DNA of 64,000 nucleotides from Patescibacteria group bacterium (GTDB lineage Bacteria; Patescibacteriota; UBA1384; XYA2-FULL-43-10; 1-14-0-10-43-13), in the NCBI GenBank assembly GCA_038078835.1, contig JBBTQI010000001.1, positions 722 through 64,721 of the forward strand, in the 5' to 3' direction. The notes under the pieces were generated by a model that saw only the letters and a program-made list of their open reading frames with translations, did no database searches and was not told the origin of the DNA. Shown in pieces: positions 716 through 63,769 of the stretch. The position numbers were made by a program, and so were the translations under genes. Every line of letters starts with the position of its first letter. Within the stretch, counting starts at the first letter, position 1.

Positions 716-848
716 CTGCAAATTCCAAATACCAAATGACAAACTACAGACAAACTTCAATTTTCAAGCACCAACGATCAAAGCGTTTGGAATTTGAGTA
801 TTCGGAGTTGTTATTTATTTGTGATTTGGAAATTATTATTTGGAATTT
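716..848. repeat. CAAAT/ATTTG-rich palindromic intergenic element (MITE-like family, copy 1)
   Basis: Left arm aattccaaataccaaatgacaaac and right arm tttgtgatttggaaattattatttggaatttcg are inverted relative to each other. The left arm is near-identical to the copy at 8688-8714. Confidence 0.6.
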
Positions 849-863
849 CGAGCCACTGGTGCT

Positions 864-2099
864 CTAATCAGCTATTTTACTGACTCGCCGATCTGCCAAA
901 CTGCTCCCCGCCAACACAAACAGGGTTATTGCCAGAGCCGGATTGTCCGCCCAAGTGTGGAGAAGGGCGGCGGCAATCGAAACAGCAACTATGCCCGCAA
1001 ACAAGCCGACCTCGCCCCGGCGGTACAACTGCCTCAAAACAAAATATATCAACAAAAGCCAAAGAAGCAAACCGATCAAACCCAACTCCAGCCAAAGCTG
1101 AAAGTACCAGCTCTCAGAGATCAAGCCACTGCCATACTTCACCGCCAGCGGTCCGGCCGTGCCCAATCCCGAACCAAGGAGAAATTGGGTTGGCTCATCT
1201 ACCCGCCGGACAATCTCGGCCCAGGAATTAATAATCGCGCTGTAATGCTCCGATTGCGAGGCGCCATGAGTCACGAGATCGCGCCAGAGACCAATGTTCT
1301 GATTCAAAAGCTCGACAGCGCCAACCGCCAAAATCAAAACCCCTCCCGCCGCCGCTCTTATCCAAACCTGCGTCGGCACTAAAAAGAGTGCCAGAAACGC
1401 ACCGCCGATTAATCCGATAAAAGTGGAGCGCGAAAAGGTAAAGATAACGGCAGTACCAATCAAGAGCAGACCAAAGAGATAGCGGCGGTTTTTATGCCGC
1501 CGATAAGCAAACCAGAGGAGGAAAAAGGCGGGCAGAAGATAGGCGCCAAGCTGGTTGGGAGTGCCGATGATGGAAGCGCTTTGGAGAATCGGATTGACGG
1601 CAAAGCCCCCCCAGCCAAAACCTTTACCTGCCGGAATCAGGCCCCACTCCGCCCAATAATTAGCCGGCAGGAATCTCTCGACAAGCGCCCAAAACGCTAC
1701 AAGAACCGCCACGATGAGATAGATTTTTTTAAAACGGTCTATCGTCCCGGCGGCATTGTCCCGCCACGCCAAAATCAGGATAATAACCGCCATTAAGTTC
1801 AAACGATAGCCTTCAAGCGCTCGCCCCGCGTCAGCCGAAAGGAAGAGAACGGAGATAATGCCCAGGATAATTAACGCGCAAGCGGCGACGATCAAGGGCA
1901 AAACCGGCCCTTTCCGGAAAAGATTCCGTTTAAAAATCACAAAAAATGCCCCAATCACAACCGGCTCATACCAGTGGGTTATCCAAAAAACTGCCGACTC
2001 GCTCCAAACCGTCTGCTTTTGCAGCAGATTGATTAAAAAACTCTGAAAGGGCAGATAAATTAAAAGAACCAAAAGAAAATTATCCGGCAGACGGTTCAT
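864..2099 (-). CDS. Polytopic membrane protein, O-antigen ligase/Wzy-like polymerase family (paralog 1 of 3)
   Basis: 411 aa ORF with about 10-12 predicted TM helices and a large loop, matching the Wzy_C / O-antigen ligase architecture. Family assignment is from pattern only. Confidence 0.45.
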   Translation of the reverse strand: MNRLPDNFLLVLLIYLPFQSFLINLLQKQTVWSESAVFWITHWYEPVVIGAFFVIFKRNLFRKGPVLPLIVAACALIILGIISVLFLSADAGRALEGYRLNLMAVIILILAWRDNAAGTIDRFKKIYLIVAVLVAFWALVERFLPANYWAEWGLIPAGKGFGWGGFAVNPILQSASIIGTPNQLGAYLLPAFFLLWFAYRRHKNRRYLFGLLLIGTAVIFTFSRSTFIGLIGGAFLALFLVPTQVWIRAAAGGVLILAVGAVELLNQNIGLWRDLVTHGASQSEHYSAIINSWAEIVRRVDEPTQFLLGSGLGTAGPLAVKYGSGLISESWYFQLWLELGLIGLLLWLLLIYFVLRQLYRRGEVGLFAGIVAVSIAAALLHTWADNPALAITLFVLAGSSLADRRVSKIAD

Positions 2100-3309
2100 T
2101 GTTTACCTCGATAAGGGCCAGGGCCAACCAGAACAGGGCGGCCAGATCATTTTTAAAATAAGTGGTGTCGAAAAAACCGTGAATTAAGATAGCAACAAGA
2201 GCCAGGACCGCCGCCCACTTCGCCGTTCCCCACTGCCGCCGCGCCCGCCGGAAAAATCGACCCAAAAGACCGAAAAAAGCCAAGAGGCCCCAAAAGCCCA
2301 GATTGAGCCAGAGGGCGAGATAGAGGTTGTGCGGATGGAGGGCGTAAGTTAAAAGATAACGCCGGAAACCGATATCGTTCTCTGTTGCGGCGGCAATCGC
2401 CCCCTCGTATCCGCCCAAGCCGAGACCGAAAAGCCAGTTCTCACGCAGAAGAGCCATTGAATAGTTATAAATATCCAGGCGTGAGCGATCAATGTCGGAG
2501 AGGGGCCGTCCCAGGGGAGTATTAAGCCCGACCCAAACCAGGGTTGCGGCCAGTCCCAAAGCAAGGGCAACTTTCGCCGCCGGCACCAGCCGCTGTCCCG
2601 GCAAATTTGCGACAAGCGCCTTTTGGCGCGAGAAGAAAACCAGGGCGCCCAAAGCCAGAGTCAGAGCCAGGGCCAGCAAACCGGCGCGGGAGAGCGCCAA
2701 AAAGATAGCGATAAGAACCGGAACCATAATGCAAGCCAGAGTCAGCCGCTCCCGGTTGTTCCTGGCCAACCCAAAAACCGGCAGCGAGAGAAAGAGCGCC
2801 GGCACCAGAAACATCGCCAAGTAGTTGGGCGATTCAAAGGGACCAAAAGCCCGGAAGTGCTCGGGGTTTAAATATTGAAAGAAGGATGAATCGCCGACCT
2901 GATAAGCCGCCAGCCGAACCGCCCCCAAACGCTGAAGAATCGCCCAGAAAGAGACCAGAAGAGTCGAGAGCAGAAGAGAGTATGACAGCTTGGAGAGATT
3001 GGCCCGGCCGATGCCATTGGCGACACTCCAGGCGTAGAGAGCCGGAATCAGAAACCAGCCCTTAAAGATGCCCAGCGCATTGTAGTGATCGCTCGCCACA
3101 GCAACCGAGACCAGAGCCGTCGTCAAAAAGAGAACAAACCGGAGTGAACTAAATCGAATCCCTGCCCTGTTCCGAATCACCCTTGTTAGAACTGCGGCGA
3201 AAGCCAGCAAAACGGCCGCTTCAAAGATATTGGTTTTGACTGCACCAAAGCTAAAACGGAAAAAATAGAAAGGAATCAAAAAGGTCGCAAGATAAATTAA
3301 CAGGTTCAT
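2080..3309 (-). CDS. O-antigen ligase/Wzy-like polymerase family membrane protein (paralog 2)
   Basis: Multi-TM ORF. Start chosen at internal MNLLIYLATF (ATG 3307-3309), which gives an ATGA overlap with the upstream gene. Similar topology to the neighbours. Confidence 0.45.
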   Translation of the reverse strand: MNLLIYLATFLIPFYFFRFSFGAVKTNIFEAAVLLAFAAVLTRVIRNRAGIRFSSLRFVLFLTTALVSVAVASDHYNALGIFKGWFLIPALYAWSVANGIGRANLSKLSYSLLLSTLLVSFWAILQRLGAVRLAAYQVGDSSFFQYLNPEHFRAFGPFESPNYLAMFLVPALFLSLPVFGLARNNRERLTLACIMVPVLIAIFLALSRAGLLALALTLALGALVFFSRQKALVANLPGQRLVPAAKVALALGLAATLVWVGLNTPLGRPLSDIDRSRLDIYNYSMALLRENWLFGLGLGGYEGAIAAATENDIGFRRYLLTYALHPHNLYLALWLNLGFWGLLAFFGLLGRFFRRARRQWGTAKWAAVLALVAILIHGFFDTTYFKNDLAALFWLALALIEVNNEPSAG

Positions 3310-4798: not shown

Positions 4799-6028
4799 GT
4801 GATGATAAAATCTTTGGCCAAAATCTTGACTTTAACAGCACTAGCCAGCTTAATCATCGGTCTTAATCCCGGGCGGCTTTTAGCGTTGGATACCTCCAAG
4901 GATAATTTCTTGAGCGGCGATTATAAAAATAATCTTATTGATGATTACTCCTTTATTGACATTAACTCTGTGGATCAGGCGGCGATTCAGAAATTCCTTG
5001 ACGACAAAGAGTCGCCCCTGCGCGACTACTCCGAAGGCGGCCGCTCGGCCGCTCAAATTATTTACGACGCCGCTCACGGCGCCAATGAAGCCAGCGGCGA
5101 CTGGGGCGGTATCAGCGTCAACACAACAACCGGCACCGTCAGTCCCAAAATTATTCTAACCTATCTGGAGAAGGAACAAAGCCTCATCTCCCGCGACGAC
5201 CGGCCCGACAACGTCCTCATCAAAGCTATGGGCTACCAGTGCTACGTTGGCGTCTCCAATGACAACAACGAAAATACCTGCAACGACCGCTATGAAAATT
5301 TTACCCTCCAGATCGAAAACGCCGCCTGGCAGCTGCGCTACAACTATGAATACGCTAAACGGGGCACCAAACCGAGCGGCGTGGCCACCCACTATTTAAC
5401 CAATGATACAGAAACTTTTTATGGCGAATACAAATACAACAACCCCGACAGTGCTTACTACAACCCCAAATATTACGGCCCCTTTGAGATAACTTTCGCC
5501 AATGCCGCCACCGCTTCCATCTATAGCTACACGCCCTACATCTTTGACAGCTCTTACAACTTCTGGCAGATCTTTAACGACTACTTCACCGCCTCGCCGC
5601 CGCCGCCGCCCACCCCCACAACCAACGACACGGCCAGATTGGTCATAAAGACTTATACCAACCCCGTTACCGTGGGCGGAAGCAAGAGCGCCGAAGATGC
5701 CGTCTTCTTTAACAACACCCTTATCGAGGTCGCCGGCAAGACCGCCTGGCAGCTCACCTTTGAAACCGAGATCGGAACCAAAACCTACACCGTTGAGTAT
5801 AAGAACGGCAACAGCGAGGTTGTCGCAACCAAGGAGATTGAGGTTACCCGGCACAAGACCGCCGACATCAACGGCGATGGCAATGTTGATATCCAGGACC
5901 TCTCCCTTCTGGCCAACTATTGGGGGCAGGAGCACCCCGGCGACCCCTTTGCCAATCTGAACCCGGGCGAGGATGAGGTTGTCGACATTATCGATTTATC
6001 AATCTTGGCCAGCAATTGGAACGGCTAA
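4799..6028 (+). CDS. Secreted protein with C-terminal type I dockerin-like domain
   Basis: Signal peptide MMIKSLAKILTLTALASLIIG, a PPPPPTPTT linker, then DINGDGNVDIQDLSLLANYW ... DEVVDIIDLSILASNW, which matches the duplicated dockerin Ca-binding loop plus helix. GGAGGGGGAG RBS upstream. Confidence 0.6.
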   Translation: MMIKSLAKILTLTALASLIIGLNPGRLLALDTSKDNFLSGDYKNNLIDDYSFIDINSVDQAAIQKFLDDKESPLRDYSEGGRSAAQIIYDAAHGANEASGDWGGISVNTTTGTVSPKIILTYLEKEQSLISRDDRPDNVLIKAMGYQCYVGVSNDNNENTCNDRYENFTLQIENAAWQLRYNYEYAKRGTKPSGVATHYLTNDTETFYGEYKYNNPDSAYYNPKYYGPFEITFANAATASIYSYTPYIFDSSYNFWQIFNDYFTASPPPPPTPTTNDTARLVIKTYTNPVTVGGSKSAEDAVFFNNTLIEVAGKTAWQLTFETEIGTKTYTVEYKNGNSEVVATKEIEVTRHKTADINGDGNVDIQDLSLLANYWGQEHPGDPFANLNPGEDEVVDIIDLSILASNWNG

Positions 6029-6029
6029 T

Positions 6030-6150
6030 CTCCTACAAAATTACAAATTTATCGAAACTACAAATACTACAAAACTATGAATCAGCGATCCCTCTTTGTT
6101 TGTGATTTTGTAAGATTTGTACTTTTGTGTAATTTGTAATTTTGTAGGAG
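6030..6150. repeat. MITE-like element with perfect 19-bp terminal inverted repeats (CTCCTACAAAATTACAAAT)
   Basis: tcctacaaaattacaaatt at 6031-6049 is the exact reverse complement of aatttgtaattttgtagga at 6131-6149. Internal arms are CAAAT/ATTTG-rich. The right TIR supplies the AGGAG SD of the downstream gene. Confidence 0.7.
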
Positions 6151-7408: not shown

Positions 7409-8740
7409 ATGAAAAAAATTGTCTTAATCTCCTCCGACAAGGTGGGTAGAACGATGGCGGGACCGGGGATCCGCTATTTTGAGATGGCTCGCGCCCTGGC
7501 CCAAGATTTTAACGTCACCCTGGCCGTCCCCAACGAGTGCGATCTGGCCGGCGAGGGCTTCTCTCTTAAGACTTACAACTCGCGCTGGCCGAGCCACACC
7601 CTCAAAGCGACGGTTGCCCCAGCCGATGCGGTTGTTGCCCAAGCCCTCTGGCCCGATCTGCTTTTTTACCTCAAGCGCCATAAAATCAAATATATCGCCG
7701 ACCTCTACGATCCCGTTGTCATTGAGGTGCTTGAATATTTAAAAAACGAACCGCCGGCCCGTCAGCGTCGGACATTTGACTTCCATCGCCGCAATCTCCT
7801 GCTGCAAGTTAATACCGCCAACCACCTCCTTTGCGCCACTCCGACCCAACGCGATTTCTACCTCGGCATCCTCTCCGGCCAGGGCCTGATTACGCCGCGC
7901 GAGTACAGCCAATCGGACGATCTGACCCGCTCCATCTCTCTCTTACCCTTTGGCCTGCCCAAAGATCCGCCCAAGCCGCCCGGCCGCTTTAAATTTGAGG
8001 AACTGTATCCGGCGATTCGACTCTCTGATAAAGTTGTTTACTGGGGCGGGGGCATCTGGAACTGGTTTGATCCCTTGACCGCTATCAAGGCAATCGAGCA
8101 GATCAGCCGGAAGCGGAGTGATATTAAACTGGTTTTTCTGGGCGCCAAGCATCCCAACAAAAAGATTAAAGCCATGGCGGCGGTGACTGAGGCCGTTGAA
8201 TACTGCCGGAAGCACGATTTACTTGACCGCTTCGTCTTCTTCAATTTTGACTGGACTCCTTACGAGGAGCGCGCCGGTTATCTTGCCAGAGCCAATATAG
8301 GCATTTCGACCCACCGCCAAAATCTTGAGACTCACTTCTCCTTCCGGACACGGATTCTTGACTATCTTTGGGCCGAACTGCCGATGGTCCTCACCGAGGG
8401 CGACGCCTTAAGCGAGATGGTGCGAGAAAAAAATCTCGGAGCGGTAATCAAGGCGAGCGATGTTCCGGGTGCGGCCAGAGCCATCATCGAGCTGGCCGAC
8501 AACGGTCGGCGGCGGGACGAGATAAAGCGCAATATCAGAGCGGTCAAAGATCAATACTGCTGGGAGAGAGTCGTTGCCAACCTGGCTGATTTGATTAAGC
8601 GGGACACCCTGCCCGATCGGCCTCTTTCTTACCTCAAACTGTTGCGCCTCGCCAAAAATTTTTACTGGGCGGGAATGATTAAAAAATTAAATTCCAAATC
8701 ACAAATAACAAATGTTTGGAAATTGATAATTGGACTTTGA
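7409..8740 (+). CDS. Glycosyltransferase family 1 (GT4)
   Basis: 443 aa with a GT4-type C-terminal domain (VYWGGGIWNWFDPLTAIKAI...LGAVIKASDVPGAARAI). The last ~18 codons (KKLNSKSQITNVWKLIIGL) are encoded by the repeat element at 8688. Confidence 0.7.
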   Translation: MKKIVLISSDKVGRTMAGPGIRYFEMARALAQDFNVTLAVPNECDLAGEGFSLKTYNSRWPSHTLKATVAPADAVVAQALWPDLLFYLKRHKIKYIADLYDPVVIEVLEYLKNEPPARQRRTFDFHRRNLLLQVNTANHLLCATPTQRDFYLGILSGQGLITPREYSQSDDLTRSISLLPFGLPKDPPKPPGRFKFEELYPAIRLSDKVVYWGGGIWNWFDPLTAIKAIEQISRKRSDIKLVFLGAKHPNKKIKAMAAVTEAVEYCRKHDLLDRFVFFNFDWTPYEERAGYLARANIGISTHRQNLETHFSFRTRILDYLWAELPMVLTEGDALSEMVREKNLGAVIKASDVPGAARAIIELADNGRRRDEIKRNIRAVKDQYCWERVVANLADLIKRDTLPDRPLSYLKLLRLAKNFYWAGMIKKLNSKSQITNVWKLIIGL

Positions 8741-8778
8741 GATTTATTTGGTATTTGTTATTTGATGTTTGGAGTTTA
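8688..8778. repeat. CAAAT/ATTTG palindromic element (copy 3)
   Basis: aattccaaatcacaaataacaaatg paired with atttggtatttgttatttgatgtttgg. Overlaps the 3-prime end of the GT1 gene and precedes the flippase start. Confidence 0.6.
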
Positions 8779-8784
8779 AAGATA

Positions 8785-11009: not shown

Positions 11010-11045
11010 TTTCTTCTCCTGCTTGCGATTCTTCATTACTCCGAT

Positions 11046-11083
11046 TTGACGCGATCGTTTAAAATCGGAGTAATAGGACTAAT
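11046..11083 (+). promoter_or_regulatory. Perfect 12-bp stem hairpin (TTACTCCGATTT / AAATCGGAGTAA) between GT2 and the next gene
   Basis: Inverted repeat with a 14-nt loop. Not followed by a clear U-tract, so it could be an attenuator or a processing site rather than a terminator. Confidence 0.35.
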
Positions 11084-13901: not shown

Positions 13902-14070
13902 TAGTTTGTTGGCAAGTTAACAAGCCTGCTAATCTCGACGTGATTCTTCCGTCATTATAGATCAATTTTTCAGTTCAGCCAAAAGTGTCAAGCCAAGTAA
14001 TATTTCTCTCCCCCTGCTCAGCCAGTTTAATATCCTTAACTTTATAATCCATACTGCCTTCCTTCTTTGC

Positions 14071-16326
14071 TTACTTGCTGTCTTGCTTACTTGCCTGCTC
14101 CTCGGAGCCTTGGCGCAGTGGGGCTGTCTTGCTGACAAAAACGATGTCGGCAATCGCATTTTCCCCGGCGACATTGATGATTTTGATCTCGTCGTCCGCT
14201 TTAATATCGATATCGCCCAGCTTGCGCCAAACAAACTTTTCCACTCCAACATCCTTGTCAACTTGGAACTTGTCACCCTTCGGGTGATCGCCCGCAGGGC
14301 GAAAAACTGAAAACTGGAAACTTCCTGACGAGCCTCCGACAAGGTGGCGAATCCAGAGCTCATAGGAGCCGCTCTCAGTCGCTTTTCCTGACAGAACGCT
14401 CTCCGGCTTGTCGGTGTAGATAAAATCCTGCCGCAGTTGGGTAAAGAGGTGTTTGCGCCAGAAATCATACCGTCCCCGACTCCAACCATCTTCATAGTAG
14501 GCAAACCCCCTTGCCCACTCCGTTATCGGCAATTGTTTAATTGCCTTATTGCCCCACTGTCCCCTTGCCGAATTGCCAATTTTGGTTATTCGATCATTGG
14601 AATTTATTTGGGATTTGTTGTTTGGATTTTGGAATTTGAAAATATGGATATTTTCCCCGAACCTCTTTGTTTCCACCAATCCCTCCTTTGATCTCACCAA
14701 TGCCAGAAGATCGGTCTGATTCCACTTTTTGACGATAACCGGATCGGTCTCTCGCCAAAGATTGGAGGCTTGAGCAAAGCGGCTCTCCGTATCCAGACGA
14801 AGAATGACGCAATCAACGCCGCCCTCTGCCAGCAGAGAGGCAAATTCGCCCTGATCATGCTTTTCGTAAAATTGCGACACTAATTCATTGCGATAGAACC
14901 GCTCGGCCGTCGGCAAAAAAGAGAAGGTCGCGCCATCGTCAAGGCGCGGCACACCCAGCGCCAGAGCCAAGAGATCGGAGTTGGCCGCATCGCGAAATTC
15001 GGCCCGCTCATCTTTAAAGTAGACAAAGCCCAGTCCCGGCGGATAATAGGCCTTTTGACACACACCGCTATCAGCCAGATAATTTTTCAGTTCCCGATAC
15101 TCCGCCGGCACTTTGGTGAGCGGCAGGTAACCGGCATAGTCAAACGTTAAATAGGGCGCGATGATAAATAAGGCGCTGCCGGCAAGCAAGGTCTTAAGGC
15201 CGGAGGCTAAAGGCCGGAGGCTAAAGGCCGATAAGCAAGCGAAAAGATAATCCAAGCCAAAGGCAAAGAGAATAATGGCGGCGGCCGCGACAATGAATTG
15301 GAGATGATAGATCTCGCGGAAAATACCCAGCGCCGGTATCCGCTCAAACAGCGCGACAAAGATTGGCCCCAACGGTCCGCTCGGACCCTTGGGAAAGGGG
15401 GCAACCGATATTAACGTCAATATGCTGGTCAGCGCCAATTCGCGGCGGGGACGATTCCCGAGGCCGAAAAGAGCCGCCAACCAGAAGACAGCCAAACCAA
15501 AAAGATAGCGGGGATCATGCGAGAGGGCGTAAAAGAAATTATGGGTAATCTGGTGATCGGAGAAGTTCAGAAAATTCCCGGCGCTGTGGGGCATCATTCG
15601 CATATACTCCAGCGTTGTGACGGCCACTGCCCTAATCTGCTCCGCACCCTGATCATAGCTCAAAGACAAGACGAACCAGGGCAGAAGAAAGAGGACAAGA
15701 GCCGACCAAGAGAAGATCAAATTAAAGAAACGCTCTCGTCGTCGCCCGGCGGCAACGAGAAGGTTAATCATCAAAAAGAGGGTCAGAAGCAGGCCCGCCT
15801 GGACTTGGGCAAAAACAAGCGAATAAAGAAAACCCAAACCAAGATAGTGCCGCCAGTTTTTTTTCTTGATATTAAAATAAAGGTGGAGAAAAAAGGGCAA
15901 GGCGGCGAAGGCCAAAAGCGACCAGCGGAAACCAACAATTGTTCGGACAAAAAGATAAGGATTAAAGGCGTAAACCAGAGCCGAAATCGTGGCAGCGAGC
16001 CGGTTTACGCCTTGCGACTTAGCGAAAAGAAAAAACCCGGCGGCGGCCAGAGCGTGAAGAAGAATAAGAAAGAGAGCGAAACTGAACTCCGGTCGAAATA
16101 GACCCAGCGGGGCCAGAAGAATCAAGCCGTTTTTGCTGGCAAAGTCAAAGGGATTGCCGGCCCGAAAATCGCCAAACTCCCGCCAAAGATTTCTCATATC
16201 CAGAAGCGGCCAATCCCAATCATAACGAAGGGGCAGGCCGTCTGATCGCAAATGCGATAAAACCAAAACAGCAAGCATCAATAAAGATACCGCAATCACT
16301 TGTTTTGATTTGATTATGTTAAACAT
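14071..16326 (-). CDS. Large GT-C fold membrane protein (YfhO/ArnT-like) with C-terminal extracytoplasmic domain
   Basis: 751 aa with an about 12-TM N-terminal region and a soluble C-terminal domain. Carries in-frame repeat insertions at 14581-14645 and 15193-15236. Confidence 0.55.
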   Translation of the reverse strand: MFNIIKSKQVIAVSLLMLAVLVLSHLRSDGLPLRYDWDWPLLDMRNLWREFGDFRAGNPFDFASKNGLILLAPLGLFRPEFSFALFLILLHALAAAGFFLFAKSQGVNRLAATISALVYAFNPYLFVRTIVGFRWSLLAFAALPFFLHLYFNIKKKNWRHYLGLGFLYSLVFAQVQAGLLLTLFLMINLLVAAGRRRERFFNLIFSWSALVLFLLPWFVLSLSYDQGAEQIRAVAVTTLEYMRMMPHSAGNFLNFSDHQITHNFFYALSHDPRYLFGLAVFWLAALFGLGNRPRRELALTSILTLISVAPFPKGPSGPLGPIFVALFERIPALGIFREIYHLQFIVAAAAIILFAFGLDYLFACLSAFSLRPLASGLKTLLAGSALFIIAPYLTFDYAGYLPLTKVPAEYRELKNYLADSGVCQKAYYPPGLGFVYFKDERAEFRDAANSDLLALALGVPRLDDGATFSFLPTAERFYRNELVSQFYEKHDQGEFASLLAEGGVDCVILRLDTESRFAQASNLWRETDPVIVKKWNQTDLLALVRSKEGLVETKRFGENIHIFKFQNPNNKSQINSNDRITKIGNSARGQWGNKAIKQLPITEWARGFAYYEDGWSRGRYDFWRKHLFTQLRQDFIYTDKPESVLSGKATESGSYELWIRHLVGGSSGSFQFSVFRPAGDHPKGDKFQVDKDVGVEKFVWRKLGDIDIKADDEIKIINVAGENAIADIVFVSKTAPLRQGSEEQASKQDSK
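14581..14645. repeat. CAAAT-family element copy inside CDS (in-frame, encodes FKFQNPNNKSQINSNDRITKIG)
   Basis: ttggaatttatttgggatttgttgtttggattttggaatttg. Same orientation relative to the coding strand as the other intragenic copies. Confidence 0.55.
15193..15236. repeat. GGCC-type 13-mer tandem repeat (AAGGCCGGAGGCT x about 2.7) inside CDS
   Basis: cttaaggccggaggctaaaggccggaggctaaaggccg. In-frame, encodes ...SAFSLRPLASGLK.... Related copies at 1-45 and 57326-57390. Confidence 0.6.
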
Positions 16327-16694
16327 TAATCGCTCGGGGCGGCGCCGGACCTGCCGTCTTTTTCCCGTCGCAGCTCAACCAATGCCATTACTACAGCCAG
16401 GATCAAAAAATAATAGGTATAAATGGCAAACTTCTCGGCATAATCTTCTTTGCCCATTATCAACAAAACCGGCACCAAACAAAGGAAATACAGCGCGACT
16501 TTGGCGTATCGGGAGCTTGACCAAGGATTCAATATCGCCCAAATAATAAAAGCCAGGCCGGCGATATTATCTATCGACCAATTAAAATCAATACCAATTA
16601 AAATACCGATTGTGACAAACAAAAGATCAAGGTACGGCTTTGGCAGATACCGGCGATATAACTGAATTAACTTTTGCTTGATTTCCGGCAGCAT
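16326..16694 (-). CDS. Small (122 aa) 3-4 TM membrane protein, paralog of 20889..21272
   Basis: LNPWSSSRYAKVALYFLCL aligns with LNPIRSELLLKVALALMAL in the 127 aa paralog. Function unknown. Confidence 0.5.
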   Translation of the reverse strand: MLPEIKQKLIQLYRRYLPKPYLDLLFVTIGILIGIDFNWSIDNIAGLAFIIWAILNPWSSSRYAKVALYFLCLVPVLLIMGKEDYAEKFAIYTYYFLILAVVMALVELRREKDGRSGAAPSD

Positions 16695-16703
16695 CTCAAT
16701 TTT

Positions 16704-21272: not shown

Positions 21273-21278
21273 AGGATA

Positions 21279-25347: not shown

Positions 25348-25361
25348 AAACTAAATCAAAT

Positions 25362-49523: not shown

Positions 49524-51152
49524 CTATCTCGTCTTGGCGGTTTTTTCCCTCGGCGAGAAATCCATTAAGTGGCCCAAGACTTTGCCGGCCGCTCTAAAGA
49601 GAAATTTGACATCGCTAAGATTTCTGACGCCCAGAATTTTTCTCAAGATAAACTTCGGCGTGATAAATGATTTATAAAGACCTTGCGTCAACTCTTTGAT
49701 GTCCTCCTCTGTCAAAGGTGATTTCATCACTGCCATGCGCTGGTCGTAATCCTCCCAGTCCTCCGTTAAGAGCCAGCCATTCTTTTTGCACTCGGCAAAG
49801 AGCGGCGTGCCCGGGTAAGGGATAACGATGGTTGCCTGAAGAGTGTCGACATAACCTTTATCAAAAAGCTTCTTTGACAATTCGATTGTTCTTTCGGCGT
49901 CTCTCTTGCTCTCCCAGGGATACCCCATCATCGTCGTTATATGGGGCTCAAGTCCGCCCTTCTTGGCCATCCGGACACCTTTTTCGATTTCCGCTACCTT
50001 GAGGTTTTTATTGATCCGGTCGAGCGTCTTTTGGTTCGCCGATTCCAAGCCGTAGAGAATAAAGCGAAAACCGGCCTTCCCCATCAGATTATACTCCTCC
50101 TGATTTAGAGCTTTAAGGCGCATATTGCAGTCGATTTTGATCTTCTTGTTGTAACCGCGCTCAATCATCCCCTCACAGAACTCTTTGAGCCATGATCCGA
50201 TGGGAAAGGAGCCGGAGTCGTCCATAATCTCCTTAATGTGATATTTTTCAATCAATGTGCCGATTTCGTCCAGCACTCGCTTGACCGAGTGCTTGCGGTA
50301 ATCCTTACCGGGATAAAGGGTGGTCCAGCTGCAGAACCCACATTTTCCCCACCAGCAATCGCGAGCGGCATAAGTGTAGGTCCCAGGTGTTCGCTTGTAG
50401 TTACCGTTCTTGTAGGCGTAAAGATGCCACTTGGTGAGATCCCGGTCGATCAACGGGAGCTCATCAAGATCGTGATTAAGCTCAAAATGCCCCGTGTTTT
50501 GGTAGTTGGTAGCCAGTGATTGGTATTTGGTATTTAGGGATTGAGTTTTGGAACTTATTTGGGATTTGGGATTTGGGATTTGGGATTTTCCAGAGCGGTA
50601 CCAAATTCCCGGCTCGAGTGATTCGCCGTGATTAAGATGATTAGCGATATTCAATAGAAGAAAATCATAATCGCCGCCGGTGGCAATATAATCTACCTTT
50701 GAATTTTCCATTGATTCCCGCGGCAAAGCAGTCACATGATCACCGACCAGGACAATTTTCAAATTCCAGTCTTCAGTTTTCAATGATTCTTCTTTGAGAA
50801 CATCGATTACCTTCCAGTGGCGCTTGACTACCGGCGCTTTGGTTTCCAGCATTATAAGATCCGGCTTAAACCGCTTAATCCGCTCCAGCCACTCCTCCTG
50901 TGTCAACTCCTCGGCAATACCGTCATCCCACATCACTTCATAACCCTGATCCTGAAGCAGTGAGGCCGCGTATGAGGGGACCATCGGATAAATATAGGTC
51001 GGATTATTAAACCATTGAAACTGGCGGTTCTGGCCCAAACAGGGGGTGCCCTTCTCGTCCGGCATCGGCGGATAGGAAATCGCTACCTTGAATTTCGCGT
51101 TCTTCCTCCGCTGATCTTCTGTTGGTTTGGCAATATGTTTAATTGGTCTCAT
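49524..51152 (-). CDS. B12-binding domain radical SAM enzyme (class B rSAM, probable sugar methyltransferase/modifier)
   Basis: N-terminal cobalamin-binding-like domain (KPDLIMLETKAPV...KIVLVGDHVT), then CWWGKCGFC (Cx4Cx2C) and an rSAM core. Contains an in-frame CAAAT-family element at 50497-50590 in the interdomain linker. Confidence 0.6.
   Translation of the reverse strand: MRPIKHIAKPTEDQRRKNAKFKVAISYPPMPDEKGTPCLGQNRQFQWFNNPTYIYPMVPSYAASLLQDQGYEVMWDDGIAEELTQEEWLERIKRFKPDLIMLETKAPVVKRHWKVIDVLKEESLKTEDWNLKIVLVGDHVTALPRESMENSKVDYIATGGDYDFLLLNIANHLNHGESLEPGIWYRSGKSQIPNPKSQISSKTQSLNTKYQSLATNYQNTGHFELNHDLDELPLIDRDLTKWHLYAYKNGNYKRTPGTYTYAARDCWWGKCGFCSWTTLYPGKDYRKHSVKRVLDEIGTLIEKYHIKEIMDDSGSFPIGSWLKEFCEGMIERGYNKKIKIDCNMRLKALNQEEYNLMGKAGFRFILYGLESANQKTLDRINKNLKVAEIEKGVRMAKKGGLEPHITTMMGYPWESKRDAERTIELSKKLFDKGYVDTLQATIVIPYPGTPLFAECKKNGWLLTEDWEDYDQRMAVMKSPLTEEDIKELTQGLYKSFITPKFILRKILGVRNLSDVKFLFRAAGKVLGHLMDFSPREKTAKTR
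50497..50590. repeat. CAAAT-family element inside CDS with TTGGGA x4 hexamer run (encodes KSQIPNPKSQISSKTQSLNTKYQSLATNYQ)
   Basis: tttggaacttatttgggatttgggatttgggatttgggatttt. In-frame within the rSAM gene. Confidence 0.6.
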
Positions 51153-55121: not shown

Positions 55122-55257
55122 CTCCTCTCATCAGAGACCATCGAGAGTGAAGATAACCGATTGTGCAAAAATAAGCAAGTAAAGCTCGTAGAGCAATAAG
55201 ACTATATAAAATAAATGCCTTACCAGCTTTACTGCGGATCTATTGATTCATCCTTTA

Positions 55258-56975: not shown

Positions 56976-57003
56976 CGTAAACCAATCAAGAATGGATAAC
57001 TAA

Positions 57004-57080
57004 TTTTCCAAATGACTAATGACGAATATGACGATCCCCTTATTGGTTATTCGTTATTTGGATAATTTGTCATCCATTTG
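57004..57080. repeat. CAAAT/ATTTG palindromic element (intergenic, between GT2 and rmlD)
   Basis: ttccaaatgactaatgacgaatatgacg paired with ttattcgttatttggataatttgtcatccatttg. Confidence 0.5.
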
Positions 57081-58056
57081 TGGCGCGATTGCGTAAGTAA
57101 TCGCCCAGCATTTCTTGCCACGGCCTAACCTCGATCCCTAATGCTGATTTAATCTTCTCTTTGGAGAGATAGGAGTAAGCCGGACGCCTGGCCACCTGAG
57201 GATATTCTGCACTAGAGATAGGCTTTAAGTCAAGAGTTGTCCCGGTTTGAGCGAAAATTTCTTTGGCAAAATCATACCAGGAGCACGCCCCCTCGCCGGA
57301 GAAGTGGTAGATACCACATGGCAAGCTTAAGGCCGGAGGCTTAAGGCCGGAGGCTACATCAATACTGCCTTCGGCCTTTGGCCTTAGGCCTTCGACGATC
57401 TGGTTAATGAAACTGACCAGATCCCCCGTATAAGTCGGCGAGCCGACTTGATCATTGACGACCGACAACGAATCGCGCTCTTTGGCCAAGTGCAGCATTG
57501 TCTCAACGAAATTTGTGTCGGGATGTCCCTCCGGCAATTCGCCGAATATCCAGGCTGTCCGGATAATGTAATAGCCGCCCTTCGGGGACTGTCCCCCTGA
57601 GAGCCTGCCCCGTACTCGATACGGGGGGACTGTCCCCTTGTATGCTCTCTCAACCGCCAGCTCCCCTTCATACTTTGTCATACCGTACACCGAGAGCGGA
57701 TGGGGCTCGTCGGTTTCGACGTACGGGACGCCATTTTCGCCGTCAAAGACATAATCGGTGGAGATGTAAATCAGGTTTACTCCGGCCGCAGCCGCGGCTT
57801 TGGCGACATTCTCGGTGCCGGCAACATTGATCCGGCGGCACAGCGCCTCGTTCTCCTTGGCCTTGTCAACTTGAGTGTAAGCCGCCCCGTGGATAATCCA
57901 ATCCGGTTTCTCCCTTGATATGACCGCGCTGACTTTATCCGGATCGGTGATATCCATATCATCGGAATCAGTCAAAATCAGCCGGTACTTAGTACCCAGT
58001 AATTCGGAAATCTTATGGCCAAGCTGGCCTTTTGCGCCGGTAACCAGAACCTTCAT
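57070..58056 (-). CDS. rmlD: dTDP-4-dehydrorhamnose reductase with two in-frame repeat-element insertions
   Basis: MKVLVTGAKGQLG...IHGAAYTQVDKAE...NVAGTENVAKAAAAAGVNLIYISTDYVFDG, the RmlD signature. 328 aa versus about 290 typical. Extra segments coincide with the repeats at 57326-57390 and 57581-57640. Confidence 0.8.
   Translation of the reverse strand: MKVLVTGAKGQLGHKISELLGTKYRLILTDSDDMDITDPDKVSAVISREKPDWIIHGAAYTQVDKAKENEALCRRINVAGTENVAKAAAAAGVNLIYISTDYVFDGENGVPYVETDEPHPLSVYGMTKYEGELAVERAYKGTVPPYRVRGRLSGGQSPKGGYYIIRTAWIFGELPEGHPDTNFVETMLHLAKERDSLSVVNDQVGSPTYTGDLVSFINQIVEGLRPKAEGSIDVASGLKPPALSLPCGIYHFSGEGACSWYDFAKEIFAQTGTTLDLKPISSAEYPQVARRPAYSYLSKEKIKSALGIEVRPWQEMLGDYLRNRATNG
57326..57390. 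repeat. GGCC-type element: TTAAGGCCGGAGGC x2 plus inverted copy (GCCTTCGGCCTTTGGCCTTAGGCC)
   Basis: In-frame within rmlD, encoding GLRPKAEGSIDVASGLKPPALSLP. Same 13-mer as at 15193-15236, and a one-mismatch variant at 1-45. Confidence 0.6.
57581..57640. repeat. Palindromic element: GGGGACTGTCCCC x2 flanking a CCCGTACTCGATACGGGG hairpin
   Basis: ggggactgtcccc at 57584-57596 and 57625-57637. In-frame in rmlD, encoding TVPPYRVRGRLSGGQSPKGG, which is absent from canonical RmlD. Confidence 0.55.
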
Positions 58057-59540: not shown

Positions 59541-59625
59541 GACTCCCAAATCCGATGCTAATTTACGAATGCATGCTAATGATACGAATATTCGCAATAT
59601 TCGTGTACCGATTTGTTATTCGCAT
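59541..59625. repeat. AT-rich palindromic element between rmlC and rmlA (ACGAATATTCGCAATATTCGT core)
   Basis: cccaaatccgatgctaatttacgaatgcatgctaatgatacgaatattcgcaatattcgtgtaccgatttgttattcg. Confidence 0.45.
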
Positions 59626-60335
59626 CGCCTGTTTTTCTCCGCCATGATCATATTGGCCCGCAACAGGCTGTCGAATGTTCCGGCATCCTCCCAGACACCG
59701 TCGATAATGTTGACGGAGAGTTCCCTGTTTTTAAGATAAATATTGTTTAGGTCGGTAATTTCAATCTCGCCTCGCCCTGATGGTTTCAAATTCTTAGCAT
59801 AGTTAACAACCCGATTGTCATAGACATAAAGCCCGACTACCGCATAATCGCTCTTGGGTTTCTTGGGCTTCTCCTCGATGGAGAGGGCCCGCATCTTCTC
59901 GTCAAATTCCACCACCCCAAACCGCTCCGGATCATGAACCTTTTTGGCAAAGACGCAGGCGCCGGACTTAAACGACTTGATCTGTCGAGAAAAATCGCGA
60001 TCAAAGATATTGTCCCCCAGAATCATCGTCACGCTGTCTTTGCCGATAAAAGTATCGCCGACAATAAAGGCATCGGCCAAGCCGCGCGGTTCCTCCTGGA
60101 TCTCATAACTGAACTTGGCGCCAAACTCCCGGCCGCTGCCCAGAAGGTGCAGGAACTGGCCGGCGTTATCCGGAGAGATGATAATCAAAATATTCTTGAT
60201 GCCGGCCTTAATCAGCGTCTGGATCGGATAATAGATCATCGGTTTGTCAAAAACCGGCAGAAGCTGTTTTGAGGTTACTTTAGTCAAAGGCCGAAGACGC
60301 GTCGCCCGCCCGCCCGCTAAAACGATGCCCTTCAT
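59616..60335 (-). CDS. rmlA: Glucose-1-phosphate thymidylyltransferase (short form)
   Basis: [41 protein letters not shown]... Confidence 0.8.
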
Positions 60336-60458
60336 AATATCTCCTTTGTTAATCCTGCACCTCAGAGTCCAAACTTTAGTTTGTGGGAAACGGCCCTTCG
60401 CCCAACAATCCCATTCTGCACACTAAAGTGTGTTCTCTGGCGAGTAAAAAGTGAATTA

Positions 60459-61760: not shown

Positions 61761-61863
61761 CGCGCCTTTTACTTTAGCAGAAAGCGCCGCCAAATCCAAC
61801 GCTTGATTTCGGAGTTTTGCTTTGGTTATAATGGACTGGAATATCATAACTCAAGGAGGCAAA

Positions 61864-62325: not shown

Positions 62326-62374
62326 ATTACAAGGTAAAACTTAGCACAATGACTTAAGGCAATAGTGATAGATG

Positions 62375-62464
62375 CTCCTGCAAAATTACAAATTCAACAA
62401 AATTACGAATCTTACAAATATTTGTAATATTTGTAGTTTCGGGAGATTTGCAATTTTGTAGGAG
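62375..62464. repeat. MITE-like element, same TIR family as 6030..6150 (CTCCTGCAAAATTACAAAT ... ATTTGCAATTTTGTAGGAG)
   Basis: TIRs match with 2 mismatches. The internal acaaattcaacaaaattacgaat is near-identical to the copy at 63694-63716. Confidence 0.65.
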
Positions 62465-62477
62465 ATTGGAGGTAGTG

Positions 62478-63101
62478 ATGCTCGAGGTCAATGTTGAAAA
62501 AATTATGCCGGTGACGGAGGCAAGAGACACGCTTAATAAGATCGTCGACGAGGTTGCGGCGGGCGATGAGCTCTACGTCTTAACGGTGAACGGCAAACCC
62601 AGCGCCGTCCTGGTCGGTGTCCATCATTTAGAGAAACTGACCGGTACCAAAGAAGAGGATCTGGTAGTGACGGCGGCAACATTGCCGGCACCAACCGTCG
62701 AAACGGACACATCAATCCCGCTTAACTCTATAACCGAGTCAGCCCCGACACCCCCTGTTGCGCCGGCGGCATCAACTGTGCCCGAACAGCCGGTCGGGCC
62801 AGCCCCGGCATCAATATCCTCGCCGCTTAATAATACCGATCTTTTTGGCGAGGACGCACTATCAACCCCCGCATTCGACACCGTTTCGCCGGCCGCGCCG
62901 ACAGCTTCGCCAACCCCTCCCGCTCCGCCCGCACTGGAACCGGCGCCGCCGCCCGAAATTAATCCCGCTGACGTTTTTCCCTCAACCGACAATATGGCAA
63001 CACCGCCGCCGGCCGCGCCGGCAACCGGCCAAATGGGAATTCCAGCCGTGACGAACAATCAAAATCCGCTGCCGGCAATTAACAATCCCCTAAATCAATA
63101 A
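62478..63101 (+). CDS. Phd/YefM-type antitoxin-like N-terminal domain fused to about 140 aa Pro/Ala/Thr-rich low-complexity tail
   Basis: MLEVNVEKIMPVTEARDTLNKIVDEVAAGDELYVLTVNGKPSAVLVGVHHLEKL then a P/A-rich tail. GGAGATTGGAGG RBS upstream. Confidence 0.5.
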   Translation: MLEVNVEKIMPVTEARDTLNKIVDEVAAGDELYVLTVNGKPSAVLVGVHHLEKLTGTKEEDLVVTAATLPAPTVETDTSIPLNSITESAPTPPVAPAASTVPEQPVGPAPASISSPLNNTDLFGEDALSTPAFDTVSPAAPTASPTPPAPPALEPAPPPEINPADVFPSTDNMATPPPAAPATGQMGIPAVTNNQNPLPAINNPLNQ

Positions 63102-63113
63102 GACGGAAGAACG

Positions 63114-63347
63114 ATGACACCAGCAAACACTCGGGGAAACAAGAAGAAGACCACTGTTAAAATTGATCAGGATCTCTGCGCCCGCTGTCTAAACTGCACC
63201 CAAATTGTCGAGGAGGTTTTCTTCTACGACGAGAAGGAAGATGAGGTTAAGGTCGACAACTCTGCCATCACCGACGAGAACATCGATCTGGTGAGAGAGG
63301 CCGCGGAGTGCTGCCCCTCCCAGGCAATTATTATCAATGAGGATTAA
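63114..63347 (+). CDS. Small ferredoxin (CxxCxxC...CP single-cluster type)
   Basis: DQDLCARCLNCTQIVEEVFFYDE...AAECCPSQAI. Confidence 0.6.
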   Translation: MTPANTRGNKKKTTVKIDQDLCARCLNCTQIVEEVFFYDEKEDEVKVDNSAITDENIDLVREAAECCPSQAIIINED

Positions 63348-63667
63348 TTGGGACCAAGTCCCAGCTCGCGCCTGATCTCCTCCGGAATCATCTCCGGCGA
63401 CCAGGGCGGATCAAAGACCACGTCGGTCACAACTTCTTCTATCTCTTCTATCTCCGCTGCTTTATCTTTGACATCATCCACGATCATCGCCGCCATCGGG
63501 CAGTGCGGCGTTGTCAGCGTCATTGTCACAATGGCCTTGTTTTTGTTAATTTCAACGCCATAAATCAGACCCATATCATAGACCGAGATCCCGATCTCCG
63601 GATCGGTCACCTCTTTGATCTTTGCTAAAACCGCGAGAGCCAATTTATCATTTTTGTCAATCTTCAT
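63344..63667 (-). CDS. DUF59/SufT-like Fe-S cluster assembly protein (MIP18 family)
   Basis: VTDPEIGISVYDMGLIYGVEI...TMTLTTPHCPMAAMIVDDV. Confidence 0.75.
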   Translation of the reverse strand: MKIDKNDKLALAVLAKIKEVTDPEIGISVYDMGLIYGVEINKNKAIVTMTLTTPHCPMAAMIVDDVKDKAAEIEEIEEVVTDVVFDPPWSPEMIPEEIRRELGLGPN

Positions 63668-63680
63668 TGTACCTCCAGTC

Positions 63681-63769
63681 CTCCGACAAAACTACAAATT
63701 CAACAAAATTACGAATTTTACAAATACATGTGGCGAGCAGAGTCGAATCCATTTGTAAATTTACAAGAG
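63681..63769. repeat. MITE-like CAAAT element copy (ACAAATTCAACAAAATTACGAAT core) between DUF59 gene and SOD gene
   Basis: ctccgacaaaactacaaattcaacaaaattacgaattttacaaatac paired with atttgtaaatttacaagag. Confidence 0.55.

What the first reader, a model, noticed from the sequence alone, without database searches (positions are those of the whole stretch)
716..63769. MITE-like CAAAT/ATTTG palindromic element family with 19-bp TIRs, dispersed at gene boundaries
At least nine copies were found: 716-848, 6030-6150, 8688-8778, 14581-14645, 50497-50590, 57004-57080, 59541-59625, 62375-62464 and 63681-63769. Copy 6030-6150 has perfect terminal inverted repeats, CTCCTACAAAATTACAAAT and ATTTGTAATTTTGTAGGAG. 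Copy 62375-62464 has the same TIRs with two mismatches, and it shares a near-identical internal 23-mer (ACAAATTCAACAAAATTACGAAT) with copy 63694-63716. Copies 716 and 8688 share AATTCCAAAT.C.AAAT.ACAAA. The elements sit between co-directional genes, and their GGAG-containing end lies 6-9 nt upstream of the downstream start codon (6157, 62478). They therefore appear to supply Shine-Dalgarno sequences, and possibly hairpin terminators or promoters, as Correia or ERIC elements do. No transposase is present, so the elements are non-autonomous.
Basis: seen in the sequence. Interest (0 to 1): 0.75.

Follow-up and report, generated by a model that had tools for sequence, protein, structure and literature searches.

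The report
Palindromic repeat elements in CPR bacterium
A tiny-genome groundwater bacterium (Patescibacteria/CPR) carries a family of short AT-rich hairpin repeats that fill the gaps between genes and sometimes sit in frame inside genes, much like the 'selfish' palindromic elements of Rickettsia; relatives carry the same repeats, and I found no published description of them.

Summary
The four longest local inverted repeats in the window are four of the nine claimed copies. Six sites fold as strong hairpins (z -2.6 to -9), and three are single-arm tracts, two of them inside genes. Only three copies (6030, 62375, 63681) carry the 19-nt terminus CTCCTACAAAATTACAAAT. The others are related CCAAAT- or TACGAAT-unit subfamilies.

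The window comes from a Hainich groundwater Patescibacteria (CPR) contig. The 19-nt terminus plus further TACAAAT units recurs in about 16 other metagenomic contigs (GC 0.31-0.49). These copies lie between rplB/rpsS, rpsS/rplV, rplA/rplJ and atpH/atpA, and in frame inside tsaD. One relative has at least 5 copies in its ribosomal-protein operon, while another has an empty rplB/rpsS junction.

Copies keep the asymmetry between their two arms and occur in both orientations, so whole elements are copied. I found no consistent target-site duplication, no transposase in the window, and no promoter or terminator signature. The C/A-rich strand is depleted in stop triplets.

Verdict: a dispersed palindromic repeat family, closer to Rickettsia RPEs and REPINs than to a classical MITE. 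The mobility mechanism and any host function remain inferred.

The parts
716..848 (.). B-type hairpin element (CCAAAT / ATTTGG 7-mer arms). It fills the spacer between the stop of the Wzy-like gene 864-2099(-) and the start (707) of the next (-) gene.
   Evidence: I3 (35-nt arms, 74% complementary). (-38 kcal/mol, z -4.75). (gene calls).
6030..6150 (.). A-type full element with perfect 19-nt termini CTCCTACAAAATTACAAAT / ATTTGTAATTTTGTAGGAG. It starts 1 nt after the stop codon (TAA, 6026-6028) of gene 4802-6028(+) and ends 6 nt before the ATG at 6157.
   Evidence: I1; -46.5 kcal/mol, z -9.0.
8687..8779 (.). B-type hairpin. Its left arm is translated as the C-terminal ~17 aa of the GT1 gene (7454-8740), the stop codon lies in the loop, and the right arm carries a GGAG 10 nt before the ATG at 8785.
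   Evidence: I4; -27.2 kcal/mol, z -4.7.
14581..14645 (-). Single-arm CAAAT-unit tract in frame inside the 751-aa ORF 14071-16326(-). It encodes ...KFQNPNNKSQINSN... and is not a hairpin.
   Evidence: (z +0.99).
50497..50590 (-). Single-arm CCCAAAT heptamer tract in frame inside the B12/radical SAM gene 49524-51152(-). It encodes KSQIPNPKSQISSKTQSLNTKYQSLATNYQ at a site that is variably expanded in relatives.
   Evidence: (z -0.12).
57002..57067 (.). Hairpin element with CCAAATGACTAATGACGAAT arms, lying between the rmlD stop (57070) and the GT2 start (56975). A relative (L135 5519-5589) has a hairpin containing the related GACTAATAACGAATAT sequence.
   Evidence: (-25.4 kcal/mol, z -4.95).
59553..59627 (.). 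Weaker hairpin built on TACGAAT / ATTCG units, between the rmlA stop (59616) and the rmlC start (59537).
   Evidence: -20.7 kcal/mol, z -2.6.
62375..62464 (.). A-type full element, a near-perfect palindrome, in inverted orientation relative to 6030. It lies between gtrA (ends 62325) and the Phd-like gene (ATG 62478).
   Evidence: I1 and I2: 89% to the opposite arms of 6030; I2; -36.1 kcal/mol, z -8.1.
63681..63769 (.). Decayed A-type copy. The left arm is intact and 88% identical to the 62375 left arm. The loop is homologous to that of L109 10282-10412. The right arm is truncated. Its GGAG end faces the start (63667) of the FeS-assembly gene on the minus strand.
   Evidence: D5; z -0.45.
57325..57392 (-). 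Related feature: a GC-rich heptamer hairpin (xAAGGCC / GGCCTTx units) in frame inside rmlD, at a site that carries variable inserts in most CPR homologues.
   Evidence: (D10, D13).
55178..55233 (.). Related feature: an intergenic hairpin with GTAAAGC / GCTTTAC units, the same unit type as hairpins in L109 (11292-11381) and L097 (4612-4738).
   Evidence: (I12).

Best explanation
These are members of a family of short (65-135 bp), AT-rich, non-coding palindromic repeat elements found in a clade of Patescibacteria (CPR). Each arm is a run of degenerate 7-9-nt units: xTACAAAT in the A type, xCCAAAT in the B type, and TACGAAT in another subfamily. In the A type the outer 19 nt, CTCCTACAAAATTACAAAT, is the conserved terminus.

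Whole elements, both arms together, are copied to new sites in either orientation, and no target-site duplication is detectable. Copies persist where they do little harm. One such place is the few nucleotides between a stop codon and the next ribosome-binding site in operons. Another is a surface loop of a protein, with the C/A-rich strand, which is poor in stop triplets, as the sense strand.

The following points are inferred, not shown. Once inserted, the elements are co-transcribed and form long AU-rich stem-loops without U-tails. They should therefore not terminate transcription, and they may act as mRNA processing or stability sites. The T/G-rich arm supplies stop codons in two or three frames and a terminal GGAG, which in some copies can act as a Shine-Dalgarno sequence. 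After insertion the arms evolve in place by gain and loss of units. The copying enzyme is unknown.
For: The family is real in the window.
- Searches show top-ranked inverted repeats, fold z-scores down to -9, and 6 pattern matches against 0.28 expected.

Whole elements are copied.
- The 6030 left arm matches the 62375 right arm at 89%, and the 6030 right arm matches the 62375 left arm at 89%. Each element's own two arms match at only 84% and 78% (I1-I4).
- 63681 shares its arm and loop with L109 10282-10412.
- In L135, two copies share the same nested GC hairpin.

The family extends beyond this genome.
- A metagenome scan with the 19-mer returned 46 stretches. About 16 of them continue with TACAAAT units, and many have a complementary arm.
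- A profile search found further, unseeded copies in L109, L081, L066, L097 and L086.
- The exact 19-mer lies before an ATG in L087.
- An alignment of 10 copies from at least 5 genomes conserves both arms, and 4 of 21 predicted pairs show compensatory change.

Placement is consistent.
- Copies lie between rplB/rpsS and rpsS/rplV (L109), rplA/rplJ (L097) and atpH/atpA (L104).
- L135 has at least 5 copies in its S10/spc operon, while L136 has an overlapping TAATG rplB/rpsS junction.
- The UDP-glucose dehydrogenase to NTP-transferase junction is filled in L087 and has 0 nt in the window.

Copies occur in frame inside genes.
- The tsaD gene of L096 has 4 inserts relative to PDB 8iey. Two of them encode PT(N/K)LQIKRNYEITN, which is an A-type arm.
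- The radical SAM and RmlD insert sites are variable across homologues.

Other supporting results.
- The C/A strand is depleted in stop triplets: 28 observed against 59.4 +/- 5.7 in shuffles. Seven of the nine A-type arms tested have none, and their T/G strands carry 3-6.
- There is no transposase in the window.
- There is no Rfam family match.
- No terminator-like or promoter-like site coincides with an element.
Against: - No insertion polymorphism between close strains could be examined. All Hainich copies are 99.98-100% identical, and the nearest other genomes are only about 70-79% identical in conserved proteins. The 'empty' sites therefore come from distant relatives.
- No mobilising enzyme and no transposition signature were found.
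- The whole genome could not be counted. The genome-contig scan used an over-strict pattern and returned only chance hits.
- The many different unit sequences, and the different tracts at one orthologous protein site, could arise locally by slippage without any transposition.
- The exact 19-mer conserved across genomes of GC 0.31-0.49, and single arms abutting start codons, could instead mean a host function.
- The better-folding strand does not follow the gene strand: the sense strand folds better in 4 of 7 hairpins. There is thus no evidence for selection on the RNA structure.
Confidence: 0.6

Rival explanations
1. The elements are a host regulatory signal. Arrays of ATTTGTA / ATTTGG units just upstream of start codons would be binding sites for an RNA- or DNA-binding protein that controls translation or operon stoichiometry. 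This is what has been proposed for the TAACTGA heptamer repeats of Beggiatoaceae. On this reading the hairpin form is simply two such arrays serving neighbouring genes.
For: - Single-arm copies lie with the ATTTGTA strand as sense, ending 1-13 nt before an ATG: window 63681, plus L088 (ychF), L090, L113, L129/L066 and L081.
- The exact 19-mer is shared by genomes of very different GC content.
- Copies occur in ribosomal-protein and ATP synthase operons.
- The published parallel is PMC4679880.
Against: - Full elements occur in both orientations relative to the downstream gene.
- Half-elements also sit directly after stop codons, with the CTCC end towards the upstream gene (L091, L119, L123).
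- Copies lie inside coding sequences, including twice within one tsaD gene.
- Presence at orthologous junctions is patchy.
- The distance from GGAG to the ATG varies from 1 to 15 nt.
Confidence: 0.15
2. The elements are not mobile. They would be 'palindromic microsatellites' generated in place by replication slippage of 7-9-nt units and by template switching across a hairpin. Similarity between loci would then be convergence on a favoured unit.
For: - There is a clear 7-8-nt periodicity.
- Many unrelated unit sequences form the same architecture: AAGGCCx, GCAAGTAA, GTAAAGC, TACTAAT and AGGGAGT.
- At one orthologous loop of the radical SAM protein, each lineage has a different tract.
- Heptamer tracts are known to be over-represented in some bacteria (Mrazek 2007, as summarised in PMC4679880).
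Against: - Copies share 45-50-nt arms at 88-89% identity, including non-periodic positions and arm asymmetry.
- Copies share loops and share a nested insert.
- The same 19-nt terminus, which is not a simple repeat, recurs in many genomes.
Confidence: 0.15
3. This is a classical MITE: a deletion derivative of a DDE-transposase insertion sequence, moved in trans by cut-and-paste and generating target-site duplications.
For: - Terminal inverted repeats, small size, multiple copies, and no coding capacity.
- Weak sub-threshold Rfam similarity to plant miRNA hairpin families, which shows only a long AU-rich hairpin shape.
Against: - There is no consistent target-site duplication in 12 full copies, allowing +/-4 nt boundary shifts.
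- No transposase is present in the window or seen next to any copy examined.
- The whole element is a hairpin rather than short TIRs flanking unique DNA.
- In-frame intragenic copies are common.
Confidence: 0.07

Closest known systems
Rickettsia palindromic elements (RPE-1 to RPE-8; Ogata et al. 2000, from my own knowledge; mentioned in PMC1779305 and PMC10969869)
   Same: Short palindromic repeats in a reduced-genome bacterium. They are found in intergenic DNA and also in frame inside conserved protein genes at tolerated positions. There is no associated transposase and no clear target-site duplication.
   Different: There is no sequence relationship. The arms here are iterated 7-9-nt units. 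Most intragenic copies here are single C/A-rich arms or direct arrays rather than whole palindromes. The host is CPR, not Rickettsia.
REP / REPIN elements mobilised by RAYT transposases (PMC3116915, PMC3733652)
   Same: Hairpin-forming inverted doublets between genes. They are non-autonomous, lack target-site duplications, and are proposed to move as single-stranded hairpins. The A-type terminus contains GTAG (…TTTTGTAGGAG).
   Different: REPs are 20-40-nt, GC-rich, strictly extragenic, and linked to a RAYT gene. Here the stems are 30-50 nt and AT-rich, copies occur inside genes, and no RAYT has been seen. The genome could not be searched for one.
TAACTGA heptamer direct repeats of Beggiatoaceae, cyanobacteria and Bacteroidetes (PMC4679880), and cyanobacterial STRR heptamer repeats or small dispersed repeats (Mazel 1990 and Elhai 2008, from my own knowledge; papers not held)
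   Same: Tandem heptamers placed a few nucleotides upstream of start codons, also in ribosomal-protein operons and occasionally in ORFs. One strand gives stop codons and the other is open. The distribution across taxa is patchy.
   Different: Those are mostly direct arrays of one exact unit. Here the units are degenerate, arranged as inverted arms that form hairpins, and carry a conserved non-repetitive terminus.
   Same: Elements of about 100-150 bp with inverted ends at gene boundaries. They are co-transcribed and can influence the expression of neighbouring genes.
   Different: Correia elements have a TA duplication, an IHF site and defined promoter elements, and they are RNase III targets. 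None of these was found or could be tested here, and there is no sequence similarity.

Membership tests
MITE | Small, non-coding and multi-copy | tested here: met
   The elements are 65-135 bp. There are three A-type copies in the window, two on L109 (probably the same genome), and further subfamily copies.
MITE | Terminal inverted repeats | tested here: met
   6030 has perfect 19-nt termini, and 62375 has one mismatch per arm. However, the whole element is one long hairpin.
MITE | Target-site duplication of fixed length | tested here: not met
   No consistent flanking direct repeat was found in 12 full copies, with boundaries shifted by up to +/-4 nt.
MITE | A cognate autonomous insertion sequence with the same termini | tested here: inconclusive
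   None is present in the window (Pfam) or next to the copies examined. The complete genome was not available.
Rickettsia palindromic elements (RPE) | Palindromic repeat inserted in frame in conserved protein genes | tested here: met
   tsaD in L096 has 4 inserts, two of them A-type arms. In the window, the radical SAM gene, the 751-aa ORF, the GT1 C-terminus and rmlD carry such tracts.
Rickettsia palindromic elements (RPE) | Sequence membership in RPE-1 to RPE-8 and a Rickettsia host | tested here: not met
   The host is a Patescibacteria MAG. The Rfam search found no family match, although RPE consensus sequences were not compared directly.
REP / REPIN | Short GC-rich imperfect palindrome with a GTAG or CGTC head, strictly extragenic | tested here: not met
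   The elements have GC 0.22-0.33 and 30-50-nt arms, and copies occur inside genes. GTAG is present but 3 nt from the end.
REP / REPIN | Association with a RAYT (Y1 HUH) transposase gene in the genome | not testable with these tools
   Only about 87 kb of the presumed genome could be read.
Heptamer simple-sequence repeats (STRR / LSSR / TAACTGA type) | Head-to-tail tandem copies of one 7-nt unit | tested here: inconclusive
   TRF finds period-7 or period-8 tracts in most copies, at 70-100% match. The units are degenerate, and the elements also have non-periodic termini and loops.
Intrinsic terminator or sigma-70 promoter | GC-rich stem plus T-run, or -35/-10 hexamers | tested here: not met
   None of the 14 terminator-like or 22 promoter-like sites in 55-64 kb coincides with an element.

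The most novel reading that the evidence does not exclude
A clade of CPR bacteria may harbour a previously undescribed system of hairpin elements built from 7-9-nt units, in several sequence families. On this reading the elements spread without target-site duplication, by an unknown mechanism that does not use a DDE transposase. Candidates are a single-strand hairpin route (HUH-type) or reverse-transcriptase mediation. The elements would have colonised both the stop-start junctions of core operons (ribosomal proteins, ATP synthase) and surface loops of essential enzymes (TsaD, RmlD, radical SAM). They would work as self-contained 'stop codons + hairpin + GGAG' cassettes that reshape operon architecture and protein length in genomes otherwise thought to be streamlined.
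Probability: 0.3. Interest if true: 0.8.

Novelty: new variant of a known kind. Interest (0 to 1): 0.62.

Why it matters
CPR/Patescibacteria genomes are about 1 Mb and are regarded as streamlined. Here, 100-145-bp palindromic repeats sit between ribosomal-protein genes, and in-frame repeat tracts sit in essential enzymes. This suggests that selfish or semi-domesticated DNA shapes these genomes much as RPEs shape Rickettsia genomes.

There are practical consequences. Such repeats break assemblies, extend or fuse ORF calls, and lengthen proteins with low-complexity loops, which affects annotation and structure prediction for CPR proteins.

If the elements prove mobile without target duplications, they point to a transposition route not yet characterised in this phylum. 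If they prove regulatory, they would be a widespread intercistronic signal. No paper in the searchable library describes them.

Tried and rejected
1. The genome-contig scan with CTCCNNCAAAAYTACAAATT returned 74 single hits in unrelated taxa, and none of the 15 best-folding contexts printed was a CAAAT/ATTTG hairpin. A later profile search rescued L066 as a true copy.
2. A viral-contig scan with the 19-mer gave 0 hits.
3. Strain comparison for insertion polymorphism failed. The other Hainich assemblies are identical or 99.98% identical, with no indels.
4. Looking for close relatives through RplB, radical SAM and RmlD found nothing closer than 71%, 79% and 60% identity. True empty-site and filled-site pairs were therefore not available.
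5. I tested for RNA-level selection by comparing the folding of sense and antisense strands. Sense was better in 4 of 7, so there is no trend. Six of the seven fold better on the window + strand, which is unexplained.
6. The loop motif CGATC is shared by 5 copies, but CGATC is common in the window (93 sites), so I did not pursue it.
7. A B-type 14-mer hit in L066 turned out to be ordinary coding sequence and was discarded.
8. Rfam gave nothing at gathering thresholds. At E <= 1 it gave only far-sub-threshold plant miRNA hairpins.
9. TIGR arrays, CRISPR and r-protein leaders were considered and dropped. There are no arrays with spacers, no associated genes, and the elements occur between many unrelated gene pairs.
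10. Elhai 2008 (SDR elements) could not be read.

Full report
**Source and setting.** The window is the reverse complement of positions about 1639-65638 of ENA contig ERZ1292638 NODE_18 (179 kb). This contig comes from the Hainich H43 groundwater 0.1-µm fraction. Its proteins are labelled 'Patescibacteria group bacterium' at NCBI. Nearly every gene in the window is for glycan or cell-envelope biosynthesis: Wzy-like proteins, glycosyltransferases, flippases, rmlABCD, methyltransferases and YfhO. Pfam finds no transposase.

**Check of the observation.** All nine sites exist at the stated coordinates.
- A scan for local inverted repeats over the whole window ranks 6030, 62375, 720 and 8687 as the four longest.
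- Six sites fold far better than shuffled sequence: 6030 at -46.5 kcal/mol (z -9.0), 62375 at -36.1 (z -8.1), 716 at -38.0 (z -4.8), 8688 at -27.2 (z -4.7), 57004 at -25.4 (z -5.0), and 59541 at -20.7 (z -2.6).
- Three sites do not fold: 63681, 14581 and 50497.
- The 19-nt termini of 6030 are perfect. The pattern gives 6 matches against 0.28 expected.
- Tandem Repeats Finder shows that the arms are runs of degenerate 7-8-nt units.
- Only 6030, 62375 and 63681 carry the 19-nt terminus; I call these the A type. Sites 716, 8688, 14581 and 50497 are CCAAAT-unit relatives (B type). Sites 57004 and 59541 use GACTAAT or TACGAAT units.
- Sites 14581 and 50497 lie in frame inside genes. The left arm of 8688 is the 3' end of a glycosyltransferase ORF.
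- Of 19 spacers examined, seven contain strong hairpins of this kind and one contains the decayed copy. The elements have GC 0.22-0.33 in a region of about 50% GC.
- A tenth copy lies just beyond the left end of the window on the same contig (L083 18406-18541).

**The copies are homologous, not merely similar in composition.**
- The left arm of 6030 is 89% identical to the right arm of 62375, and the right arm of 6030 is 89% identical to the left arm of 62375. The two arms within each element match at only 84% and 78% (I1-I4).
- The two arms are therefore distinguishable, and the whole element has been copied in inverted orientation.
- Copy 63681 has an intact left arm that is 88% identical to the 62375 left arm. 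Its loop is homologous to the loop of a copy on another Hainich contig, L109. Its right arm is truncated.
- L109 has similar coverage and GC, so it is probably from the same genome. It carries two A-type elements that flank rpsS, in the rplB/rpsS and rpsS/rplV spacers.

**Distribution beyond this genome.**
- My first scan of representative genomes used a pattern with one base too many and returned only chance hits.
- The exact 19-mer then turned up directly in front of a start codon in a relative (L087), with a degenerate partner arm 100 nt upstream. In the window, the orthologous gene junction has 0 nt of spacer.
- A metagenome scan with the 19-mer returned 46 stretches. About 16 of these continue with further (nnn)TACAAAT units, which the pattern did not require, and many have a complementary arm. 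Their GC ranges from 0.31 to 0.49.
- The contexts of these copies are: between rplA and rplJ; between atpH and atpA; after gatA; after rbfA; 1 nt before the ATG of ychF and of a DUF167 gene; and inside tsaD.
- A profile built from the arms found additional, unseeded copies in L109, L081, L066 (Candidatus Moraniibacteriota), L097 and L086.
- In a relative with 69% RplB identity (L135), at least five A-type variants occupy intercistronic spacers of the S10/spc operon. Two of them share the same nested GC-rich hairpin, so a composite element was copied.
- In another relative with 71% RplB identity (L136), rplB and rpsS overlap as TAATG. Other spacers in L136 hold hairpins built from GCAAGTAA units.
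- An alignment of ten copies from at least five genomes conserves both arms, and 4 of 21 predicted pairs show compensatory change.

**Copies inside genes.**
- The tsaD ORF of L096 has four inserts relative to a solved TsaD structure (8iey). Two of them encode PT(N/K)LQIKRNYEITN, which is the translation of an A-type arm. The other two are CAAAT-unit arrays around small GC hairpins.
- At the site of the window's radical SAM tract, about half of 26 homologues carry inserts of 10-60 aa rich in K, S, Q, N and P. The underlying DNA is heptamer arrays, and in one case (L086) a heptamer hairpin.
- RmlD in the window has two extra segments. One is unique among 30 homologues. The other lies at a site that is expanded in most CPR homologues.
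- In every intragenic case examined where the tract is a single-arm array of the CAAAT or related A-rich type, the sense strand is the C/A- or A-rich one. The two hairpin-type inserts (L086 and RmlD Ins2) necessarily have both arms on the sense strand.
- Across 21 arms, that strand has 28 stop triplets, against 59.4 +/- 5.7 in shuffles. Seven of the nine A-type arms tested have none, while their complements carry 3-6.
- The 3' half of full A-type elements has stops in two or three frames.

**What the elements are not.**
- There is no consistent target-site duplication.
- There is no Rfam family match.
- No sigma-70-like promoter or intrinsic terminator site coincides with an element, and no T-run follows the stems.
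- The better-folding strand does not track the gene strand, so I see no evidence for selection on the RNA structure.
- The terminal GGAG lies 1 to 15 nt from the start codon in different copies. It can serve as a ribosome-binding site only in some, such as 6157. Elsewhere a separate GGAGG or AGGA follows the element.

**Interpretation.** The best-supported reading is a dispersed, non-autonomous palindromic repeat family specific to a CPR clade, copied as whole elements in either orientation. Copies are retained at stop-start junctions and in tolerant protein loops, and are afterwards remodelled by gain and loss of units. Its behaviour is closest to Rickettsia RPEs and to REPIN-type hairpin repeats. 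It shares its heptamer build and start-codon proximity with the TAACTGA repeats of Beggiatoaceae (PMC4679880). It fails the MITE test on target-site duplication, and the transposase partner could not be assessed. What is shown is homology among copies, their dispersal, their placement, their in-frame occurrence, and the stop-codon asymmetry between strands. What is inferred is the mobility mechanism, co-transcription, and any role in mRNA processing or translation.

**Rival readings.** The rivals are a host regulatory array, purely local slippage, or a classical MITE. Each explains part of the data and is contradicted by other parts, as set out in the rival section. Literature searches of the held library found no description of such elements in Patescibacteria. 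I therefore rate this as a new variant of a known kind, with moderate to high interest.

Noticed in passing
window 57570-57636 (inside rmlD, minus strand): An in-frame 20-aa insert (GTVPPYRVRGRLSGGQSPKG) contains two copies of the palindrome GGGGACAGTCCCC. It is absent from all 29 aligned RmlD homologues. The unit resembles the cyanobacterial STRR1 unit (CCCCAGT/AGTCCCC); that resemblance is from memory.
   Followed up: partly
window 57325-57392; also 3-38 and 15193-15237: GC-rich heptamer tracts (xAAGGCC / GGCCTTx, and the 14-mer AAGGCCGGAGGCTA) lie inside coding sequences: rmlD, the GT4 gene that runs off the left end of the window, and the 751-aa ORF. The rmlD tract is a hairpin, at a site where most CPR homologues carry LGLRTQD...PKTQDL-type inserts.
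   Followed up: partly
window 14051-14094, 18759-18802, 23343-23378; L136 840-919 and 2044-2164: GCAAGTAA-type 8-mer tracts (TTGCTTAC on the + strand) form the C-terminal tail of the 751-aa ORF and lie in two large paralogous ORFs. The same unit builds intercistronic hairpins in the ribosomal operon of a different CPR genome (L136).
   Followed up: no
window 16000-49500: About 33 kb has lower GC (0.39-0.46, against about 0.50 in the flanks). It consists of tightly packed, often overlapping minus-strand glycan genes, with no hairpin elements and almost no spacers. It may be a horizontally acquired glycan island.
   Followed up: no
window 16326-27662: Seven consecutive ORFs (122-871 aa) have no Pfam match. 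ORFs 18277-20892 and 22849-25347 are paralogues sharing a 185-nt stretch at 76% identity (D3).
   Followed up: no
window 11035-11074: A 40-nt near-perfect palindrome (ATTACTCCGATTTGACGCGA / TCGTTTAAAATCGGAGTAAT) lies in the 133-nt spacer before gene 11143-12309. It is not built from CAAAT units.
   Followed up: no
window hairpins 716, 6030, 8688, 57004, 59541, 62375: In six of seven hairpins tested, the window + strand folds more stably than the - strand, whatever the gene strand. The exception is the copy on L083. The loops of five copies carry CGATC on the + strand. This may be a chromosome-strand bias, but the sample is too small to tell.
   Followed up: partly
L134 2631-2993 and 5516-5872; L081 248-598; the contig carrying P0179: Small bAvd / 23S_rRNA_IVP-family genes are inserted at different places within the rml operons of relatives. 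TsaD is enlarged to 408-416 aa in two relatives, which suggests the same kind of inserts as in L096.
   Followed up: no
L098 795-860: In this relative, a textbook TTGACA-N17-TATACT promoter and an AGGAGG lie just downstream of an A-type hairpin. Here the element sits upstream of the promoter rather than next to the start codon.
   Followed up: no
window 62478-63101 and relatives L078-L080, L086, L134: A Phd/YefM-domain protein of 146-222 aa is conserved next to the flippase/gtrA genes in the window and in five relatives. No obvious toxin partner is called beside it.
   Followed up: no
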